Origin: an uncultured delta proteobacterium
Lineage (GTDB): Bacteria > Desulfobacterota > Desulfobaccia > Desulfobaccales > 0-14-0-80-60-11
DNA: 64,000 bases
Assembly (NCBI GenBank): GCA_963812015.1
Contig: CAWETI010000003.1
Location: forward strand, 1,984,001-2,048,000
Direction: 5' to 3'
Each line of letters begins with the position of its first letter. Position 1 is the stretch's first letter. A program made the position numbers. Below, one piece after another: positions 21,001 through 27,000 of this stretch.

Positions 21001-24000
21001 TCATCGCCGCCACCAACCAGGACCTCCAGGAAGCCATTCGGGCAAAAACCTTTCGGCAGGATTTATTTTACCGCCTGAACGTCATCCACATCCAGGTGCC
21101 GCCCCTACGGGAACGGCCGGAAGATATCCCGCTGCTGGCCCAGCATTTCATGAGACGCTATGCCACCGAGACCAACAAAAAAATTGACTCCATCCATCCG
21201 GAGGCCCTGGAAGCGATGCGTCGGTATCCCTGGCCGGGGAATGTCAGGGAACTGGAAAACGCCATAGAACGGGCGGTGGTGGTGGGAAAAGGCCGTCAGA
21301 TCAAACTGAGCGACCTGCCCTTTGTTATGCCTGCCGGCGGGGCGGCAGAAGTGGGAGAGTTATCCCTGGAGGAGATGGAGCGCCAACACATCGCCCGGAT
21401 ACTGACCGCAGAGGGCGGCAACTTGTCCAACGTCGCCAAGGTTCTCCGCATCAACCGCTCCACGCTCTACCATAAAATTAAGAAATATGGCCTGGCGCCT
21501 TAAAAACGGACAGCCAAGCGGCCTTGCGGCCCGATCACCTAGGACAATATGGCATATCGTCCGTTTTTAGGCCTGGTGGCCTTGGGTCCGGTCGATCCCG
21601 AGATCCTGAGGCGTTTGCGCATCGCCATCGCCAAATTTTTTCTTCTACCGGTGCGAGTGCTCCGCCCCCAACCCTTGCCCCCGCCAACCTACCACGCGGT
21701 GCGTTGCCAGTACCATTCCACCCAGCTTCTGGAATACTTATTGGCCGAAGATACTTCAGGGGCTTTCCGCATATTAGGGGTTACCGCGATGGACCTCTAT
21801 ATCCCGATCTTCACCTTCGTGTTTGGAGAAGCCCAATTGGATGGGAAGGCCGCGATCATCTCAATGTTTCGGCCTCGCGGGGGGGCTGACCACCCCCTGC
21901 CGCCAAGGTCGGTCTTGTTAAAACGTCTCATCAAGTTGAGCCTGCATGAATTGGGGCATACCTTCGGCCTGGGTCATTGCCGGGAGGAAGCCTGTCTCAT
22001 GGGTTTTTCCGCCAACCTCGAAGACTTGGACCAAAGGAATTTGGCATTTTGTAAGTATTGCCAGGTGCTTCTGGCTGACTACTTCCGGGACAAGGGACTG
22101 ATCCCCGGATTTAAACGGTATGAAGAAACTCCTGCACCAGGCGCTCCCATCCCAGTTGCGGATAGTGGCCATAGACGTCGTCGATGATCGTTCCCCCGGA
22201 GGGGAGAGTGACCCCCGCCGAGGATTCCAGCATCCCCAGAAGCCGGTTCGACTCATTTTCTATCCAGGTGATATTGCGCTGGCCAAAGAGCATATGCTCC
22301 AGATCCGGTTTCAAATTGGTGGGGGTGACCACCATCAGCCAGCCCTCGCCGTAGGGGTCGTCATGGACCAGACTTGGTGTTTGCCGGACTTTGGGATTCA
22401 CTACCTCGATGACGCCGGTTATCGGTGAGAGAACCTTGGCTTTTTTCCCCTGGCGGGCCAAGACCAGCCCAACCGTGTCAAGATGAGCTTTTTCCCCCAG
22501 GTGGGGCAGCTTCATCTCGTCGGCGGGACCAAGAATCTTCTGAGAAAAGTCGTCCAGCCCGATACGCACCCGGCCGGCACTCTCCAGGGCCGCCCAGGCA
22601 TGACCCCGGTGCAAGTAGCGAGAAGGTTCCACCCTAAAGCCGAAAACTTCCTGACCCTGGGCTTTATCTGGACAAACAAAGCATTCCAGTTGATCTTCCA
22701 GAAGTTGATCGAAGGACCGCTGCCGCTGCTTTTGTTTGAAGTGATAGATGCCGCCGCGATCGCCTGTGAGCGGTTCGCCCGCTTGCCGCATGGCCTGGTT
22801 TTGGGCGGCAGCTGCGGTCATAGCCTGGTCGAATTCGCAGTTCGCACAATCAAAACAATGATTGCAAATCTTGAAATCGACCACCCCAGCTTCCATCCAG
22901 ATGCAGGGCCTTTTTCCTTCAGTGGCGTTCTTTATCATGGGCTTGCTTCCCCAATAGGGCCAGAAGGACGAGGCCTTTTGCTCCGGCAGCCGCGTCCTCC
23001 CCGCCGATCACGTTCATGATCTTTTCTTCCAGCTCTTGGTTAAATTCTTTAAGAAAAACTCCTGCGCCAGACGTCGCCAGCCATACTCGGCGAAAACCTC
23101 AGCAACCAATTCGCCGCCGGTGGGTAAAGTGTGCTGTGTGTTATCGAGGTTAATCAACCGCTGGGACTCCTGCTCGATCCAGGCGGCATTGGCCTCCCCA
23201 TAAGACAAATTCTCCAGATTCTGTTTGAGATTGCATGGCTTGACCATGAAGAGCCACCCTTCTCCATAGGGATCGTCATGGATCAGTCCAGGCTGCTGCT
23301 TAACCTTGGGGTTGACGGCCTCGATGGTGCCGTCCACCGGCGCCAGGATGGAGGCTTTGCGCCCCTCTCTGAGCAGCGCCATGCAAACATGTCCCTGATA
23401 ATACACCTTGCCGATCTCGGGTAATTTCAGTTCGTCAGCTGGCCCCAAGATTTTCTGAGAAAAGTCATCCACGCCAACCCGCACCTGTCCGTCTTCGGGT
23501 ACTGCCCAGGCGTGGCCCGGGTGCAGGTAAAAGATGCTGGTAGGCACCTGGAAGCCATAGACTTTTACCATATGAGGTGTCTGGGCTTCTTGCCGACCTT
23601 TCTCTCCCTTATCTTGCTGAGACATGACCGGTCCCTCCTTTTCTTATCCAACTCCTGAACTCATAAATTATTGGACTTGCCTTACCACAAAGCAAAGGGT
23701 GTGCCAGTTTTGGCCTAATGATATATCTATAAGGAATCACTAATAATTTAAATCATCTCTCTCTTCATCCTGGAAATTATCCAAGGACCTGGGGTTAACT
23801 TTATGTGGAATAATCCAACAAGCACTCCTGACGATTTAATTAACCTATTAATATTTGTAAGGAATTTATTGTTGGATTATTAAACAATGATTTTGGGGTA
23901 CGGGACAGAATTGACCGAGAACCCGACGGATATAATCCGGGTCGGCTCTCATACCAGAGGAGGCGAGGGAGAGAATGCATCTGCTTCAAGAGGGCGTCCG

Positions 24001-27000
24001 GGGTGTCGTAAAAATAACGAGGTCACGGCCGATCTCGTGTCATGTCCCGGGAGGATCTTACAATTTCCGGCTTTCATTCTCGGAGGCTGTTGTAGAGGCG
24101 GTTCGCGAACCGCCCCTACGAGAACCTCACCAACATGGGAAAATATTTTTGAAAGATATATCTGGGACCCAACACTATAAGCCATTTCAAAACCTGCTCT
24201 TTGGTCATCCTGAACGGAGTGAAGGATCTCGCCTTATTAAACATACGAGATTCTTGGCTACGCTCAGAATGACAATTCTCTATCAATCCAGGTTTTAAAA
24301 TAGCTTCTCGATTGATCTCGCGGCAACCGAAAACGGCTTCGCCTTTTCTTCCTTGGGACCACCGTAATCCCGACGCAGTGGAAGAAAGTCTGCTTCGCAC
24401 TATCCCAAGCTGACAAGACATGATCCACCGTCTACCCAGGGCCAAACCATCTCCGCCCTGTGCTCCTCCCGATAATCTACTCGGCCGCATAACGCTTCCC
24501 GCCGCCCTCCGGCCCGTCATTCTCCCATACTTAAAGATAAATCAGCTTTTGGGGCCCAGATTATATCCATCCATGATTTGAAAGCCATGCCAAATCAGGT
24601 CATTGTCGATTCCGCCACAGCAGGAAAGACTATTGTTGAATAATCCAACAATATTTTCCCTTTATATATTAAGAGGTTAATTCGTGTGAGCGGTTATTTG
24701 TTGCATTATTATACATAAGCTCAGGCCCAGTGGCGGGGGGAAGTCCAGCAGTTGGTGCAGGGTCTATTTTTTTAATAGTTTATTCAATGAGTTAAATAAT
24801 CTTTCCTGAACTGGCACAGCCTTTGCTTTACGGTAAGGCAAGTTCGATTATGAACTATTTGTCATGAAGGAGAGATCGACTATGTCTCAGCACAATAAGG
24901 GAGAAAAAGGTCAGCGGGAGGGCACTACACCTCCGCAAAAACCTCAGATGGCGGAAGTCTTTGGCTTTAAGGTGCCCATCAGCACCTATTATTTGCACCG
25001 GGGCCACGCCTGGGCAGTGGTGGAAAACGCAGACCAGGTGCGGGTGGGCGTGGATGACTTTTCCCAGAAGGTTTTGGGTCCGGCCGACCAGCTCAAGTTA
25101 CCCGATGTCGGCAAAATTTATTATCAGGATCACATCTGCATGGCCCTGTCCAGGCAAGGACACAAAGCCCCCTTTCTGTCGCCGGTGGATGGGGTGATCG
25201 AGGCCGTGAACCCCAAGGTTCGCAAAAGGCCGAGCTTGGTCCACGACGATCCCTATCAGGAAGGCTGGCTCTTCATGGTCAAGCCCTCAAATCTCCAGCC
25301 CAATTTGGACAACTTGCTCTTTGGCGAGGGCAACCTCGCCTGGATCGATCAAGAGGCTCACCGCTTACTGAATTTCATGGATGCCGCGGTGGGCGCCACC
25401 CTCCCGTCCGGCGGCGCCATAATCGATGATGTCTACGGTCATTATCCCGATTTAGGCTGGCGGCCTCTGGTCCAGGATTTTCTCCTCCCCATCTTGGGAA
25501 AAAGCTGGAGGAAACGGTCTGAGGCAGCCCGAAGGGCGACGGAGGAGGATCCGGAAGAACTGCTGACGCAAAGGCGGGAAGTCTTTCGGATACTGAACCG
25601 CACCGCCGAAGACAAGGAGTTTTCATCAGCCTTGAGGGATATGGAGATCGAGGCCCTGGAAACCTATAAGCTCTCCCCCGCGGCAGAAAGCGCCATCCTG
25701 TCGGGCGATTTGAAATGGCTCAATGAGCACATTGGCGAGCTTACCCAGAAACAGCTCATGTTTGTTCTTTCTTGTCTGCTTCCCGCCGCGTTGGCTCGAG
25801 GCAGCCAGGAACAGCCGGTGCGGTAAAGACCTGGCCACCTTACCGCGGCTCTGACGCACCAGCAACCGCTGCCGGAATGGGCAGTGGAGATCAACAACAA
25901 AGGTCCTGGTGATGGGAGGCGTAGCGGTGGCCTGGAGCTTGGAGCCCCGGCTGCAGCACTTCTCTTAACTTCCTTAGCGTTGCGGCTGCTTTTTAGCCAC
26001 TCTAACGGACAAACCGAGAGGAGAGAGGCGATTATGGCGACACCCCATTCCGTAAATGAAGTCCGAGGGTCGGTCATGGTAGTTGGCGGCGGCATCGCCG
26101 GCATGCAAGCCGCGCTGGACGCAGCCAACTCAGGCTTTTATGTCCATCTTGTGGAGAAAGGACCCAGCATCGGCGGCACTATGGCGCAGATCGACAAGAC
26201 CTTTCCCACCAACGACTGCGCCATGTGAATTATCTCTCCGAAGCTGGTCGAGGTCGGCCGGCACATCAATATCCAGTTGCACACCCTCACCGAACTGCAG
26301 GATATTACCGGCGAGGAAGGCAATTTCACCGTCTCCCTGAGAAAGCAACCCCGCTATGTAGACGCTTCCAAGTGCACCGGCTGCGGCGACTGTGCCCGGG
26401 CCTGCCCGGTCAGCGCGCCGGACGAGTTTAATCTGGGACTGAGTGATTGTCGAGCCATTTATCGTTCCTATCCCCAGGCCATTCCCGCCACCTTTGCCAT
26501 CAAAAAGTTTGACCGGGCTCCGTGCGTGCGCGCCTGTCCGGCCAACGTCAATGCGCAGGGGTATATCCAGTTGATCAAAGCGGGGAAATACGCGGAAGCC
26601 CTCAGTCTCATCATGGAAAACCTGCCCCTGCCCGGCACCCTGGGGCGAATCTGCCCCCATCCGTGCGAAAGCAATTGCCGGCGGCAGGACATTGATGAAC
26701 CCATCTCCATCTGCGCCTTGAAGCGATTCGTCGCGGACCAGGTGGATTGGGAAACCCTGCCGGTCCCGGAAATCGACAAGCGGGATGAAGAGGTGGCCAT
26801 CATCGGTTCGGGGCCGGGCGGCCTGAGCTGCGCCTACCATCTGGCGCTGATGGGTTACCGGCCGGTGATCTTTGAGGCCGCGGCGGAGCCCGGCGGCTGG
26901 CTGCGCTACGGGGTGCCGGAATACCGGCTGCCCCGGGAAGTTTTACAGCGGGAAATCACCTACATCCAGCGGCTGGGGGTGGATATCCGCTGCAACTCGC

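What a model noticed while it worked through the whole genome (the two positions that open the first line are those of the whole stretch)
22111..25826. Lipoyl-lysine-less GcvH-like protein family tied to HdrA / methylene-THF-reductase gene clusters
Besides one canonical-looking GcvH (g01189), the genome encodes four members of a distinct GcvH-derived family that lacks the lipoyl-attachment lysine and carries a conserved C-terminal extension (...AWIE-ES-RL...TLPSGG-IIDDVYGHYP-LGW-LVQEF): g03364, g03366, g03367 (C3:2006111-2009826, directly upstream of the HdrA-HdrA-MvhD-FdhB-FdhA(Sec) cluster g03368-g03378) and the C-terminal domain of g02366 (C3:931537-934449), where it is fused to an HdrA-like/MvhD(FlpD)/molybdopterin-binding protein next to MetF-MetV-MvhD-HdrABC genes. 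The genome has no GcvP, GcvT, LipA, LipB or LplA, so these proteins cannot act in glycine cleavage; gene context here and in other Desulfobacterota (sigma-54 activator [...]
Evidence so far: pfam.tsv: GCV_H in g03364 (108-214), g03366 (38-149), g03367 (39-145), g02366 (805-916, after Fer4, FlpD, Molydop_binding). Alignment with g01189: lipoyl Lys of the E-A-K motif replaced by Q/E/Q/R; shared C-terminal extension. Tables show no GDC-P, GCV_T, LIAS or LipB/LplA gene; six-frame family searches of this genome: lipA TIGR00510 0 hits, GCV_T PF01571 0 hits, GDC-P PF02347 0 hits, BPL_LplA_LipB PF03099 1 hit = BirA g02278. Family (E<=1e-30) found in 13 of 101 Desulfobacterota genomes sampled, 9 of 80 genera, up to 4 copies, incl. 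the ~1000-aa fused form in a second genus. In 21 family members aligned, 1 has Lys at the lipoyl position. In 12 loci of other genomes (+-1.5 kb) an M54 peptid [...]
(Added by a program. Inside this text positions count along the whole contig: contig position 1,984,001 is position 1 of the stretch shown here. "Call 12" and the like, gene names such as g00115 and contig names such as C1 are that model's own, and its searches are not shown. The text may have been shortened before it was handed on; [...] marks where a part breaks off. The agent that wrote the report below was given it as the finding of a first reader that could run no searches.)

Follow-up and report, generated by a model that had tools for sequence, protein, structure and literature searches.

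The report
Lipoate-less H-protein relatives under sigma-54 control
Three neighbouring genes labelled "glycine cleavage protein H" in public records encode a widespread, undescribed relative that cannot carry lipoate, is switched on by its own sensor system, and probably attaches to iron-sulfur energy enzymes.

Summary
Three real genes (22111-22938 -, 23014-23625 -, 24864/24882-25826 +) encode H-protein-fold proteins with a shared extra C-terminal tail. None has a lysine at the tip of the lipoyl hairpin. The genome has no GcvP, GcvT, LipA, LipB or LplA; its only PF03099 hit is BirA.

What is new here:
- The only two perfect sigma-54 promoters in the 64 kb window sit directly upstream of these genes. 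Each has a pair of 13-nt inverted repeats 100-175 nt further upstream, next to a kinase/sigma-54 activator pair.
- Across the phylum the constant partners are that kinase, the activator and an archaemetzincin (M54) protease: 16 of 20 loci from 20 families.
Hdr genes appear in 2-3 of those 20 loci, and other lineages pair the family with NrfC/NrfD/cytochrome c3 genes.
- Fusions recur to HdrA-MvhD, HdrC, CCG domains, ferredoxin domains and receiver domains.

Best reading (0.42): a cofactor-less docking or regulatory subunit of Fe-S redox complexes, made on demand. Function is inferred from context only.

No paper describing the family was found. This scan has noted the same family on other genomes before, with the same reading.

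The parts
18533..20167 (+). Sensor histidine kinase (PAS, PAS, HisKA, HATPase_c)
   Evidence: Pfam. A homologue lies beside GcvH-like genes in 39 of 73 related loci and in 16 of 20 loci across the phylum.
19938..21503 (+). Sigma-54-dependent response regulator (REC, Sigma54_activat, AAA lid, HTH_8). The listed ORF overlaps the kinase, so the true start is probably near 20169.
   Evidence: Pfam; NCBIfam AtoC/NtrC-like, below all cut-offs. 80-92% identical copies beside GcvH-like genes in related loci; present in 40 of 73.
21549..22187 (+). Archaemetzincin (peptidase M54) with an intact HExxHxxGxxH site and four Cys of a second metal site. Its 3' end overlaps the 3' end of gene A by 77 nt.
   Evidence: Pfam PF07998, E 1.1e-21. 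NCBIfam archmetzin 139 bits, cut-off 145. H133/E134/H137/H143 and C144/C149/C168/C171 are invariant in 28 orthologues.
22111..22938 (-). GcvH-like A (275 aa): N-terminal Cys4 module (C12-x12-C25-x5-C31-x2-C34), linker, H-protein fold, C-terminal extension. The second Cys4 module found in most relatives is deleted here.
   Evidence: AlphaFold mean pLDDT 81.9; Cys module about 68-77; linker under 50.
23014..23625 (-). GcvH-like B (203 aa): minimal form, H-protein fold plus extension. First gene of the B-A transcription unit.
   Evidence: AlphaFold pLDDT 89.5, pTM 0.85. H-protein fold: VIA Z 21.3, rmsd 1.4 A over 131 residues to 1dxm_A; Foldseek E 1.7e-13 to 1onl_A.
23692..23706 (-). Sigma-54 (-24/-12) promoter TGGCAC-N5-TTGC, 67 nt upstream of the start of B
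   Evidence: One of only two zero-mismatch matches in the 64 kb window.
23809..23881 (.). Inverted pair of the 13-nt repeat AATAATCCAACAA (23809-23821 on +, 23869-23881 on -). Putative activator binding site for the B-A promoter.
   Evidence: Function is inferred from position, 103-175 nt upstream of the promoter.
24639..24710 (.). Second inverted pair of the same repeat (24639-24651 on +; 24698-24710 on -, one mismatch). Putative activator binding site for the promoter of C.
   Evidence: In related loci, 19 of 60 copies with up to 2 mismatches lie within 400 nt upstream of a sigma-54 consensus site.
24812..24826 (+). Sigma-54 (-24/-12) promoter TGGCAC-N5-TTGC upstream of C
   Evidence: The second of the two zero-mismatch matches in the window.
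24864..25826 (+). GcvH-like C (320 aa from ATG 24864; probably 314 aa from ATG 24882): H-protein fold, extension, and a further tail of about 100 aa with no family match. First gene of the hdrA operon.
   Evidence: The tail has no Pfam or NCBIfam match. The tail is found in 13 of 73 related loci.
25884..30500 (+). HdrA-like giant flavo-iron-sulfur protein read through one in-frame TGA (26226-26228) in the motif DCAM-U-I, so a likely selenoprotein. The true start may lie downstream of 25884.
   Evidence: Pfam; translation with TGA=U.
30746..33796 (+). Second HdrA-like protein, with the same in-frame TGA motif
33820..34329 (+). MvhD-like protein with an in-frame TGA (G-U-HLGDCHY)
   Evidence: Read. 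Not scanned against Pfam here; the assignment rests on likeness to the Pfam-confirmed FlpD proteins.
34355..35164 (+). Iron-sulfur protein (FdhB/FrhB-like by position)
   Evidence: Only Pfam Fer4 families hit.
35192..37231 (+). Formate dehydrogenase alpha-like molybdopterin enzyme with an in-frame TGA and a SECIS element at 35591-35649
   Evidence: Pfam Molybdopterin and Molydop_binding. Rfam SECIS_3 54.7 bits, gathering score 63, E 1.8e-10. Read-through shown.

Best explanation
SHOWN
- A, B and C are expressed-looking, conserved genes of a large family of H-protein-fold proteins, called GcvHL here.
- They have lost the lipoyl lysine and gained a tail of about 45-60 residues.
- They cannot work in glycine cleavage or as lipoate carriers in this organism.

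STRONGLY INFERRED
- They are the direct output of the adjacent kinase/sigma-54 activator pair.
- The activator would bind two pairs of 13-nt repeats and fire two divergent sigma-54 promoters. One drives B-A. The other drives C together with the HdrA-HdrA-MvhD-FdhB-FdhA selenoprotein operon.

INFERRED MECHANISM
- GcvHL is a cofactor-less protein-binding module.
- It docks onto Fe-S/flavin redox complexes as an accessory or regulatory subunit, using the old H-protein surface that once met the P, T and L proteins.
- Here the partners would be the HdrA-MvhD-Fdh complex (C) and the HdrA-MvhD-MetFV complex (the fused copy). In other lineages they would be HdrCB-type or NrfCD-type complexes.
- It is made only when the sensor system calls for it.
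- The always-adjacent archaemetzincin is proposed to process or remove it.
- The N-terminal Cys4 module of A-type members probably binds a metal and may add redox sensing.
For: FOLD AND LOSS OF THE LYSINE
- Pfam GCV_H in all three.
- VIA Z 21.3, rmsd 1.4 A over 131 residues to pea H-protein.
- Hairpin tip E87-G88 aligns with E. coli K64.
- No conserved Lys in the 153 sequences of the wider alignment.
- NCBIfam GcvH scores are 53-70 bits against cut-offs of 116-117.

NO LIPOATE OR GLYCINE-CLEAVAGE MACHINERY.

SIGMA-54 CONTROL
- The only 2 perfect TGGCAC-N5-TTGC sites of the window lie upstream of B and C. In total 75 matches with up to 2 mismatches were found, against 76.7 expected by chance.
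- There are 4 copies of a 13-mer arranged in two inverted pairs.
- In 73 related loci, 32 of 53 strict consensus sites lie within 450 nt upstream of a GcvHL gene.
- In 20 loci across the phylum, 9 of 13 strict sites do.

LINK TO REDOX COMPLEXES
- Same-strand, tightly spaced operons HdrA-MvhD-FrhB-like-HdrA-HdrC-HdrB-GcvHL-GcvHL.
- A GcvHL-HdrC fusion takes the place of HdrC in 4 loci.
- An HdrA-like/Fer4-MvhD-Molydop_binding-GcvHL fusion sits next to MetVF in this genome and in relatives. Those fusion loci (L069, L073, L080) have no kinase or activator within 10 kb.
- Further fusions: three GcvHL domains with an FAD oxidase, Fer4_8 and two CCG domains; two Fer4 domains with GcvHL.
- Operons of a Tat-FeS protein, NrfD, a membrane-anchored GcvHL and cytochrome c3 occur in other families.

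GcvHL AS AN OUTPUT MODULE: receiver-GcvHL fusions P0260 and P0187.

PROTEASE LINK
- M54 is adjacent in 16 of 20 loci from 20 families.
- By my hand count, M54 is present in 76 of about 84 genomes with GcvHL, against 32 of about 217 without.

PRECEDENT: a sigma-54 two-component regulator controls an hdr operon. DVU2394 regulates the adh-hdr operon in D. vulgaris (PMC3333781, passages read).
Against: - No physical interaction was tested.
- Across the phylum the constant neighbours are the regulator pair and the protease, not redox enzymes. Hdr genes appear in 2-3 of 20 loci. A purely signalling role fits that equally well.
- The related genomes are kin, and several of the 73 loci overlap on the same contigs, so the counts overstate independence.
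- Promoters and binding sites are consensus matches with no transcript data. No RNA run is available.
- The role proposed for the protease is a guess from adjacency alone.
- The Cys4 module is modelled at only pLDDT 68-77, and its metal is unknown.
- 8 of the 123 aligned close-family sequences carry Lys at the hairpin tip, so some members elsewhere might still be modified.
Confidence: 0.42

Rival explanations
1. Signalling accessory. GcvHL proteins belong to the signal-transduction circuit itself: feedback regulators or co-sensors of the kinase/sigma-54 activator pair, in the manner of PspA-PspF or NifL-NifA (comparison recalled, not tested). The archaemetzincin would set their level. The Hdr or NrfCD neighbours would be what the circuit monitors or controls, not stable partners.
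For: - Kinase, activator, M54 and GcvHL form a cassette in 16 of 20 loci from 20 families, while the redox genes vary.
- Many Desulfobaccales loci hold only kinase, activator, M54 and GcvHL with no Hdr nearby, for example L016, L019, L020, L022 and L024.
- Receiver-GcvHL fusions exist.
- GcvHL genes are themselves the sigma-54 targets, which allows autoregulation.
- M54 and GcvHL co-occur: 76 of about 84 genomes against 32 of about 217 (hand count).
Against: - Repeated covalent fusion to catalytic redox modules (HdrC, HdrA-MvhD, CCG, ferredoxin domains) is hard to explain for a pure regulator.
- The fusion loci L069, L073 and L080 have no kinase or activator within 10 kb.
- Up to four or more paralogues per genome, and tandem copies inside hdr operons, look more like enzyme subunits.
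Confidence: 0.3
2. Carrier with a different redox group. GcvHL would still be a carrier or substrate protein for CCG-type (HdrB/HdrD-like) active sites. It would use the Cys4 module, a bound small thiol, or an unknown modification on the invariant T-L-P-x-G-G loop in place of lipoate. That would make it functionally parallel to LbpA in sulfur-oxidising Hdr systems, or to DsrC with DsrK (the latter recalled).
For: - Placement next to or fused with HdrC/HdrB and CCG domains.
- LbpA is a precedent for an H-protein relative serving an Hdr-like complex (PMC6067878; abstract and passages read).
- The Cys4 module is invariant in 38 A-type sequences.
- The most conserved motif of the tail lies in a loop modelled with low confidence, pLDDT 62-64, which suggests flexibility.
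Against: - B- and C-type members have no Cys4 module and no invariant Cys, Lys or His outside the fold core. C81 is present in 110 of 123 close-family sequences, but that position is Gly, Ala or Cys in the wider family.
- No modifying enzyme is conserved in the neighbourhood apart from the protease.
- The window's own cluster has no HdrB, HdrC or CCG gene.
Confidence: 0.15
3. Ordinary H-proteins. The public annotation 'glycine cleavage system protein H' would be right, and the proteins would be lipoylated at a shifted lysine (K90 in B, K166 in A).
For: - A Lys two residues after the hairpin tip is present in 114 of the 123 aligned close-family sequences.
- Sources name the family GcvH.
Against: - That Lys is Arg in 6 and Leu in 3 of the 123 close-family sequences, and Lys in only 27 of 153 sequences of the wider alignment.
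- The genome has no P-protein, T-protein, LipA, LipB or LplA.
- Scores fall far below the curated GcvH cut-offs.
- Lipoyl ligases need the lysine at the exact turn position (recalled knowledge, not tested here).
Confidence: 0.02

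Closest known systems
Glycine cleavage system H-protein (GcvH; Pfam PF01597, TIGR00527, NF002270; e.g. PDB 1DXM, 1ONL, 3A8I)
   Same: Same fold: Z 21.3, rmsd 1.4 A over 131 residues; Foldseek E 1.7e-13. It shares core motifs such as H-x-W near the N-terminus, G-x-D-D/x-F, P-x-x-G and P-Y-x-x-G-W.
   Different: No lipoyl lysine, with Gly at the hairpin tip. An extra C-terminal tail of about 45-60 residues. Variable N-terminal Cys4, membrane-anchor or receiver modules. Scores of 53-70 bits against cut-offs of 116-117. No P, T or L partners and no lipoylation enzymes in the genome. Sigma-54 control.
LbpA, the lipoate-binding proteins of the sulfur-oxidising Hdr-like (sHdr) system (Cao et al. 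2018, PMC6067878)
   Same: An H-protein relative encoded in or next to hdr-like gene clusters and needed by an Hdr-type complex rather than by glycine cleavage (abstract and passages read).
   Different: All 95 LbpA share a strictly conserved lipoyl lysine and come with dedicated lipoate ligases (passage). GcvHL has neither. The organisms are anaerobic sulfate-reducer-type bacteria, not sulfur oxidisers.
GcvH-L of Streptococcus pyogenes / Staphylococcus aureus (PDB 5A35; sirtuin-macrodomain operon)
   Same: An H-protein paralogue used outside glycine cleavage. Structural match Z 13.2.
   Different: GcvH-L is described as a lipoic acid carrier (abstract of PMC12440151 as listed). It has no C-terminal tail, and its partners are unrelated.
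NCBIfam NF045810 'GcvH-related protein' (GcvH_rel_desulf) and TIGR03077 'glycine cleavage protein H-like protein' (not_gcvH)
   Same: Curated families of H-protein relatives that are not true GcvH.
   Different: A, B and C score 28-38 bits against a cut-off of 150, and 30-37 bits against 144, so they belong to neither. No curated model covers this family.
Sigma-54 two-component control of hdr operons (DVU2394/DVU2395 and the adh-flx-hdr operon of Desulfovibrio vulgaris; PMC3333781, PMC4641369)
   Same: A sigma-54-dependent response regulator next to, and regulating, a heterodisulfide-reductase-type operon (passages read).
   Different: The passages read mention no H-protein-like or archaemetzincin genes in that regulon. 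The binding site there is a direct repeat, whereas the repeats here are inverted pairs.

Membership tests
GcvH (glycine cleavage H-protein, TIGR00527 / NF002270) | H-protein (hybrid barrel-sandwich) fold | tested here: met
   Pfam GCV_H E 3e-16 to 7e-20; VIA Z 21.3 to 1dxm_A; Foldseek TM 0.89-0.93 normalised to the target.
GcvH (glycine cleavage H-protein, TIGR00527 / NF002270) | Lipoyl-attachment lysine at the tip of the beta-hairpin | tested here: not met
   The tip is E87-G88 in the model of B. E. coli K64 aligns with G88. No conserved Lys in the 153 sequences of the wider alignment.
GcvH (glycine cleavage H-protein, TIGR00527 / NF002270) | Score at or above the curated family cut-off | tested here: not met
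   A 56.2/53.3, B 69.7/66.6 and C 67.1/60.5 bits against cut-offs of 117/115.85.
GcvH (glycine cleavage H-protein, TIGR00527 / NF002270) | Partner P- and T-proteins and a lipoylation route in the same genome | tested here: not met
   PF02347 0 hits, PF01571 0 hits, TIGR00510 0 hits; the single PF03099 hit is BirA. Genome 99.86% complete.
LbpA (sHdr-associated lipoate-binding protein) | Strictly conserved lipoyl lysine | tested here: not met
   As above. The LbpA criterion is taken from PMC6067878 (passage read).
LbpA (sHdr-associated lipoate-binding protein) | Encoded in or beside hdr-like gene clusters | tested here: met
   C heads the hdrA operon. GcvHL genes follow hdrB in relatives. This holds mainly within Desulfobaccales.
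LbpA (sHdr-associated lipoate-binding protein) | Dedicated lipoate:protein ligase (PF03099) in the cluster or genome | tested here: not met
   The only PF03099 protein is BirA.
NCBIfam NF045810 GcvH_rel_desulf / TIGR03077 not_gcvH | Score at or above the curated cut-off | tested here: not met
   28-38 bits against 150, and 30-37 bits against 144.
Sigma-54-dependent regulon of an adjacent enhancer-binding protein | -24/-12 promoter (TGGCAC-N5-TTGC) at a suitable distance upstream of the genes | tested here: met
   The two zero-mismatch sites of the window lie 67 nt upstream of B and 38-56 nt upstream of C. The feature is conserved in relatives.
Sigma-54-dependent regulon of an adjacent enhancer-binding protein | Enhancer-binding protein gene nearby and upstream repeats that could serve as its binding sites | tested here: met
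   REC, Sigma54_activat and HTH_8 protein at 19938-21503. Two inverted pairs of a 13-mer lie 100-175 nt upstream of each promoter. Binding itself was not tested.
Sigma-54-dependent regulon of an adjacent enhancer-binding protein | Transcripts that start at these promoters and depend on the activator | not testable with these tools
   No RNA run holds this stretch.

The most novel reading that the evidence does not exclude
GcvHL would be the plug-in regulatory subunit of a so far unrecognised control circuit for anaerobic energy enzymes.
- A dedicated kinase/sigma-54 activator pair makes a lipoate-less H-protein on demand. In some lineages the protein is controlled directly by phosphorylation, through receiver-GcvHL fusions.
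- The protein docks onto HdrA/HdrBC/CCG-type or NrfCD-type Fe-S complexes and gates or redirects electron flow, for example by switching flavin-based electron bifurcation on or off.
- A dedicated archaemetzincin resets the system by cutting it.
If true, this would give bacterial archaemetzincins their first physiological substrate and H-protein relatives a new, cofactor-free role.
Probability: 0.2. Interest if true: 0.85.

Novelty: new variant of a known kind. Interest (0 to 1): 0.66.

Why it matters
- Heterodisulfide-reductase-type and NrfCD-type complexes drive energy conservation in sulfate reducers, syntrophs and acetate oxidisers. The bacterial substrates and control of many of them are still unknown.
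- This protein family sits in about a quarter of sampled genomes of the phylum. It is fused again and again to those enzymes, and it has its own sensor system and protease. It is therefore a concrete, testable handle on how these complexes are regulated or assembled.
- It is also a systematic annotation error. Every named homologue seen is called 'glycine cleavage system (H) protein', which inflates predictions of glycine cleavage, the reductive glycine pathway and lipoate dependence in metagenome-based metabolic models.
- It gives a first genomic context for bacterial archaemetzincins.

Tried and rejected
TOOLS THAT GAVE NOTHING USABLE
I repeated it with the closer alignment A3.
- One M54 reference contained stop codons. 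I dropped it and aligned again.
- No RNA holder is listed for window 21500-26300.
- Rfam at a permissive E-value over 21000-38000 found only the SECIS of fdhA. It found nothing in the 1.2 kb divergent spacer.
- Pfam at E <= 10 and NCBIfam gave no family for the N-terminal Cys4 part of A or the extra tail of C.
- The protein atlas returned only clusters auto-named GcvH.
- The wide structural search gave only H-protein and biotinyl/lipoyl-type hits over residues 25-158. The tail (159-203) was barely tested, so no statement on its fold is made.

IDEAS CONSIDERED AND REJECTED
- K90 as a shifted lipoylation site: rejected.
- Biotinylation by the genome's BirA: rejected because there is no conserved Lys in the hairpin.
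- Decaying pseudogenes: rejected because of strong conservation, for example 36 invariant columns across 23 sequences.

LITERATURE SEARCHES THAT FOUND NO DESCRIPTION OF THE FAMILY
- 'GcvH-like' with 'heterodisulfide reductase'.
- 'glycine cleavage system H' / 'HdrA' / 'sigma-54'.
- 'GcvH' / 'lacks' / 'lipoyl' / 'HdrABC'.
- 'archaemetzincin' with 'glycine cleavage': 0 papers.
- 'archaemetzincin' / 'sigma-54' / 'two-component' / 'Deltaproteobacteria': none of the 15 papers listed (of 666 holding at least 2 terms) contained 'archaemetzincin'.
- 'glycine cleavage' / 'NrfD' / 'cytochrome c3' / 'H protein'.
Subscription journals and supplements were not covered.

Full report
WHAT IS THERE

Between 22.1 and 25.8 kb the window holds three ORFs:
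- A: 22111-22938, minus strand, 275 aa.
- B: 23014-23625, minus strand, 203 aa.
- C: 24864-25826, plus strand, 320 aa. The start is probably the ATG at 24882, which follows AAGGAG at 24868-24873 and gives an N-terminus matching B.

All three hit Pfam GCV_H far above the cut-off (E 3.4e-16, 6.6e-20 and 1.6e-18). They are 50-56% identical to each other, with 84 invariant columns that run well past the end of the H-protein domain.

A six-frame search of the whole genome gives five GCV_H matches:
- the three genes above;
- the C-terminus of a 990-aa protein at C3:931537-934509, which reads Fer4, FlpD (MvhD), Molydop_binding and GCV_H, and lies next to an HdrA-like gene, MetF, MetV, MvhD and a 1004-aa HdrA-like gene;
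- one canonical-looking GcvH on contig C2 that keeps a Lys in an E-A-K motif and just passes the NCBIfam subfamily cut-off (121.1 against 117 bits).

IS THE LIPOYL LYSINE REALLY MISSING?

The sequence alignment around the hairpin is ambiguous by one to three residues:
- HMMER aligns E. coli K64 ungapped with G88 of B.
- The T. thermophilus alignment, with one gap, puts its Lys on R89.

An AlphaFold model of B settles the geometry (69-sequence alignment, mean pLDDT 89.5, pTM 0.85). The two strands are 80-86 and 89-94, and the turn is E87-G88. The structural lipoyl position is therefore Gly: G88 in B and G164 in A.

A Lys two residues later (K90) is common but not obligatory:
- In the 123 aligned sequences (120 close homologues plus A, B and C) it is K in 114, R in 6 and L in 3.
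- In the 153 sequences of the wider alignment (150 representatives of 50%-identity clusters plus A, B and C) the position is K in 27, R in 26, S in 19 and E in 18. No hairpin column is dominated by Lys.
- 8 of the 123 have Lys at the tip itself. I cannot say whether those are modified in their hosts.

The genome has no match to GDC-P, GCV_T or lipA, and one match to PF03099. That match is BirA (TIGR00121, 215 bits against a cut-off of 83.1). Glycine cleavage and lipoate carriage are excluded for this organism.

FOLD AND ANATOMY

The fold is that of an H-protein:
- Foldseek finds H-proteins at E 1.7e-13 to 2e-09, with TM-scores of 0.74-0.93 normalised to the target.
- The Foldseek-independent search gives pea H-protein at Z 21.3, rmsd 1.4 A, over 131 residues covering model residues 25-158.

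The first helix after the barrel is thus the normal C-terminal helix of H-proteins. The family-specific addition is residues about 159-203. It consists of a loop modelled with low confidence (pLDDT 62-64) that carries the invariant T-L-P-x-G-G motif, followed by three short helices.

The N-termini vary:
- none, as in B;
- one or two copies of a four-cysteine module;
- a single transmembrane helix;
- a receiver domain (P0260, P0187);
- ferredoxin domains (P0178, P0236);
- Fer4-MvhD-Molydop_binding (P0133, and this genome's fusion);
- in P0131, three GcvHL domains ahead of an FAD-linked oxidase, Fer4_8 and two CCG domains.

In 38 A-type sequences from across the phylum, C12, W14, C25, C31 and C34 are invariant, giving the spacing C-x12-C-x5-C-x2-C. 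Most of these sequences have a second such module. The window's A has lost it. The module has no Pfam match and is modelled at only pLDDT 68-77.

C carries about 100 further residues with no family match.

REGULATION

The pattern TGGCAC-N5-TTGC gives 75 matches with up to 2 mismatches in the window, which is no more than chance (76.7 expected). There are only two perfect matches:
- 23692-23706 on the minus strand, 67 nt upstream of B;
- 24812-24826 on the plus strand, just upstream of C.

Between them lie four copies of AATAATCCAACAA, three exact and one with a single mismatch. They form two inverted pairs 60 nt apart, and each pair lies 100-175 nt upstream of one promoter.

Immediately beyond A lie a PAS-PAS histidine kinase, a REC/AAA+/HTH_8 sigma-54 activator and an archaemetzincin.

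This layout is conserved:
- In 73 related loci, 32 of the 53 strict consensus sites found in 2.46 Mb (both strands) lie within 450 nt upstream of a GcvHL gene.
- 19 of 60 near-copies of the 13-mer lie within 400 nt upstream of such a site.
- In 20 loci from 20 other families, 9 of 13 strict sites lie upstream of a GcvHL gene. A tenth heads an nrfC-nrfD-GcvHL operon.

I conclude that B-A and C-hdrA... are two divergent sigma-54 units driven by the neighbouring two-component system. This rests on sequence alone, because no RNA run holds the region.

A sigma-54 response regulator that controls an hdr operon is known from D. vulgaris: DVU2394 (passages of PMC3333781 and a table row of PMC4641369 read).

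GENE CONTEXT IN RELATIVES

Close relatives. There are 73 loci, all Desulfobaccales-type MAGs, and several overlap on the same contigs. Using tblastn at E <= 1e-8 over at least half of the query:

| Neighbour | Loci of 73 |
|---|---|
| sigma-54 activator | 40 |
| kinase | 39 |
| second HdrA | 33 |
| M54 protease | 28 |
| first HdrA | 28 |
| FdhA | 13 |

Four arrangements recur:
1. HdrA-MvhD-FrhB-like-HdrA-HdrC-HdrB-GcvHL-GcvHL(-GcvHL), convergent with M54-activator-kinase. In 4 loci, HdrC is replaced by a GcvHL-HdrC fusion (L045:9998-11089: GCV_H 28-143 and Fer4_8 217-279; it also matches the HdrC model TIGR03290).
2. C-type GcvHL heading HdrA-HdrA-...-FdhA, as in this window.
3. HdrA-MvhD-MetV-MetF-HdrA-like, followed by the HdrA-MvhD-Molydop_binding-GcvHL fusion, with no kinase or activator within 10 kb.
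4. GcvHL with M54-activator-kinase alone. This arrangement often lies near ammonium transporters, or near a Pyr_redox_2 flavoprotein with DUF1641.

Phylum level. A profile of 69 diverse members finds full-length matches (profile positions about 29-218 of 222, so including the tail) at E <= 1e-40 in about 84 of 301 sampled genomes (hand count). The tool's own tally of 247 of 301 at E <= 1e-15 also counts ordinary GcvH.

I fetched one locus from each of 20 different families. In those 20 loci:
- Kinase, a full-length sigma-54 activator and M54 lie beside GcvHL in 16.
- The 4 exceptions are L116 and L121, which have a kinase and receiver-only hits but no M54, and L126 and L127, which have none of the three.
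- Hdr genes are present in L117 (HdrA-MvhD-MetV-MetF) and L130 (HdrC-HdrB-HdrA). L113 has a partial HdrA-like hit.

In several other families the GcvHL genes flank a Tat-signal 4Fe-4S protein, an NrfD-type membrane protein, a membrane-anchored GcvHL and a small cytochrome c3. Pfam confirms this in L112, L124 and L126. Similar ORFs were seen by eye in L114, L120, L123 and L125.

The same 301 genomes were searched for PF07998, which matched in 108. By my hand comparison of the two tables:
- M54 is present in 76 of the about 84 GcvHL-positive genomes.
- It is present in 32 of the about 217 others.

Kin are not independent, and the E-value threshold is arbitrary. Some of those 32 have intermediate GcvH-like scores. 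The M54 orthologues keep the HExxHxxxxxH site and four Cys.

WHAT IT MOST LIKELY DOES

Three facts have to be reconciled:
1. The constant partners are a sensor kinase, a sigma-54 activator and a protease.
2. The variable partners are always Fe-S, flavin or membrane redox complexes.
3. The domain is repeatedly fused to catalytic redox modules (HdrC, HdrA-MvhD, CCG, ferredoxin domains), and it is also fused to receiver domains.

A cofactor-less protein-binding module fits all three. It would dock on redox complexes as an accessory or regulatory subunit and be made, or in receiver fusions switched, on a signal. I rank this first (0.42).

A purely signalling role, as a feedback or co-sensor element of the two-component system, explains fact 1 best but explains the fusions poorly (0.30).

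A carrier role with a different redox group would parallel LbpA, whose lipoyl lysine is strictly conserved (PMC6067878). It would also parallel DsrC (recalled). This role is possible for the Cys4-bearing A-type. B and C, however, have no candidate residue (0.15).

The protease's role, processing or turnover of GcvHL, is a guess from adjacency and co-occurrence alone.

The one direct computational test I planned, a predicted M54-GcvHL complex with controls, could not be run.

KNOWN OR NEW

No curated model covers the family. A, B and C fall below the cut-offs of GcvH, TIGR03077 (not_gcvH) and NF045810 (GcvH_rel_desulf). Every homologue that a source names is called glycine cleavage system (H) protein or 'H lipoate-binding protein'.

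Six literature searches found no paper that describes lysine-less H-protein relatives tied to Hdr, sigma-54 or archaemetzincin. Subscription journals and supplements were not covered.

After my own analysis I looked up this scan's earlier notes. At least seven earlier findings on other genomes describe the same family. They report lysine-less proteins with Gly at the lipoyl position, sigma-54 control, a kinase/activator pair, an archaemetzincin, the Cys4 module, and Hdr or membrane redox partners. They agree with what I found independently here. They are AI notes and not independent evidence.

VERDICT

I class it as a new variant of a known kind, an H-protein fold turned into something else, with unknown but testable function. 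Interest 0.66.

Noticed in passing
window 25884-37231: Four genes of the operon downstream of C each have one in-frame TGA at a conserved Cys position. Both HdrA-like genes have it in DCAM-U-I, MvhD in G-U-HLGDCHY, and FdhA has it with a SECIS_3 match at 35591-35649 (54.7 bits, below the gathering score of 63). The whole cluster therefore looks selenium-dependent.
   Followed up: partly
window 23900-24600: About 700 nt between the two repeat pairs hold no convincing gene. ORFs of 97-134 aa on both strands look spurious, and there is no Rfam match. The reason for so long a spacer in the divergent control region is unexplained.
   Followed up: partly
window 21549-22187 and 22111-22938: The archaemetzincin gene and GcvHL-A converge, and their listed ORFs overlap by 77 nt at the 3' ends. 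The same M54/A-type adjacency recurs across the phylum.
   Followed up: partly
L001 1477-1971 (-) = G000 contig C2, about 1331748-1332107: An orphan canonical-looking GcvH of 164 aa. It keeps a Lys in an E-A-K motif with a hairpin loop one residue longer than in E. coli, and it has an acidic C-terminal tail. It sits between a large membrane protein and a 146-aa protein that I did not scan. The genome has no P-protein, T-protein or lipoylation enzyme for it.
   Followed up: no
G000:C3:1114193-1114492: A second archaemetzincin (PF07998, E 1.4e-24) elsewhere in the genome, far from the GcvHL genes. Its context was not examined.
   Followed up: no
L112 3755-11795; also L124 and L126: In other families of the phylum the cassette encloses an operon of a Tat-signal 4Fe-4S protein (Fer4_11), an NrfD-type membrane protein, a membrane-anchored GcvHL and a small cytochrome c3. 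This layout resembles Hmc/Tmc/Qrc-type transmembrane complexes (resemblance recalled), with GcvHL on the cytoplasmic side.
   Followed up: partly
L045 9998-11089; L048 7821-8918: A GcvHL-HdrC fusion protein (363-365 aa) takes the operon position that a plain HdrC (167 aa) holds in sister loci L052 and L053.
   Followed up: yes
L016, L020, L022 (about 600-5900): In several Desulfobaccales loci that have only the kinase-activator-M54-GcvHL cassette, ammonium-transporter genes lie a few kb away, each followed by a 112-aa ORF. A link to nitrogen status was not examined.
   Followed up: no
window 17075 and 17636: Two further near-copies of the 13-nt repeat, with 2 and 1 mismatches, lie upstream of the kinase gene. 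They might allow autoregulation of the regulator operon.
   Followed up: no
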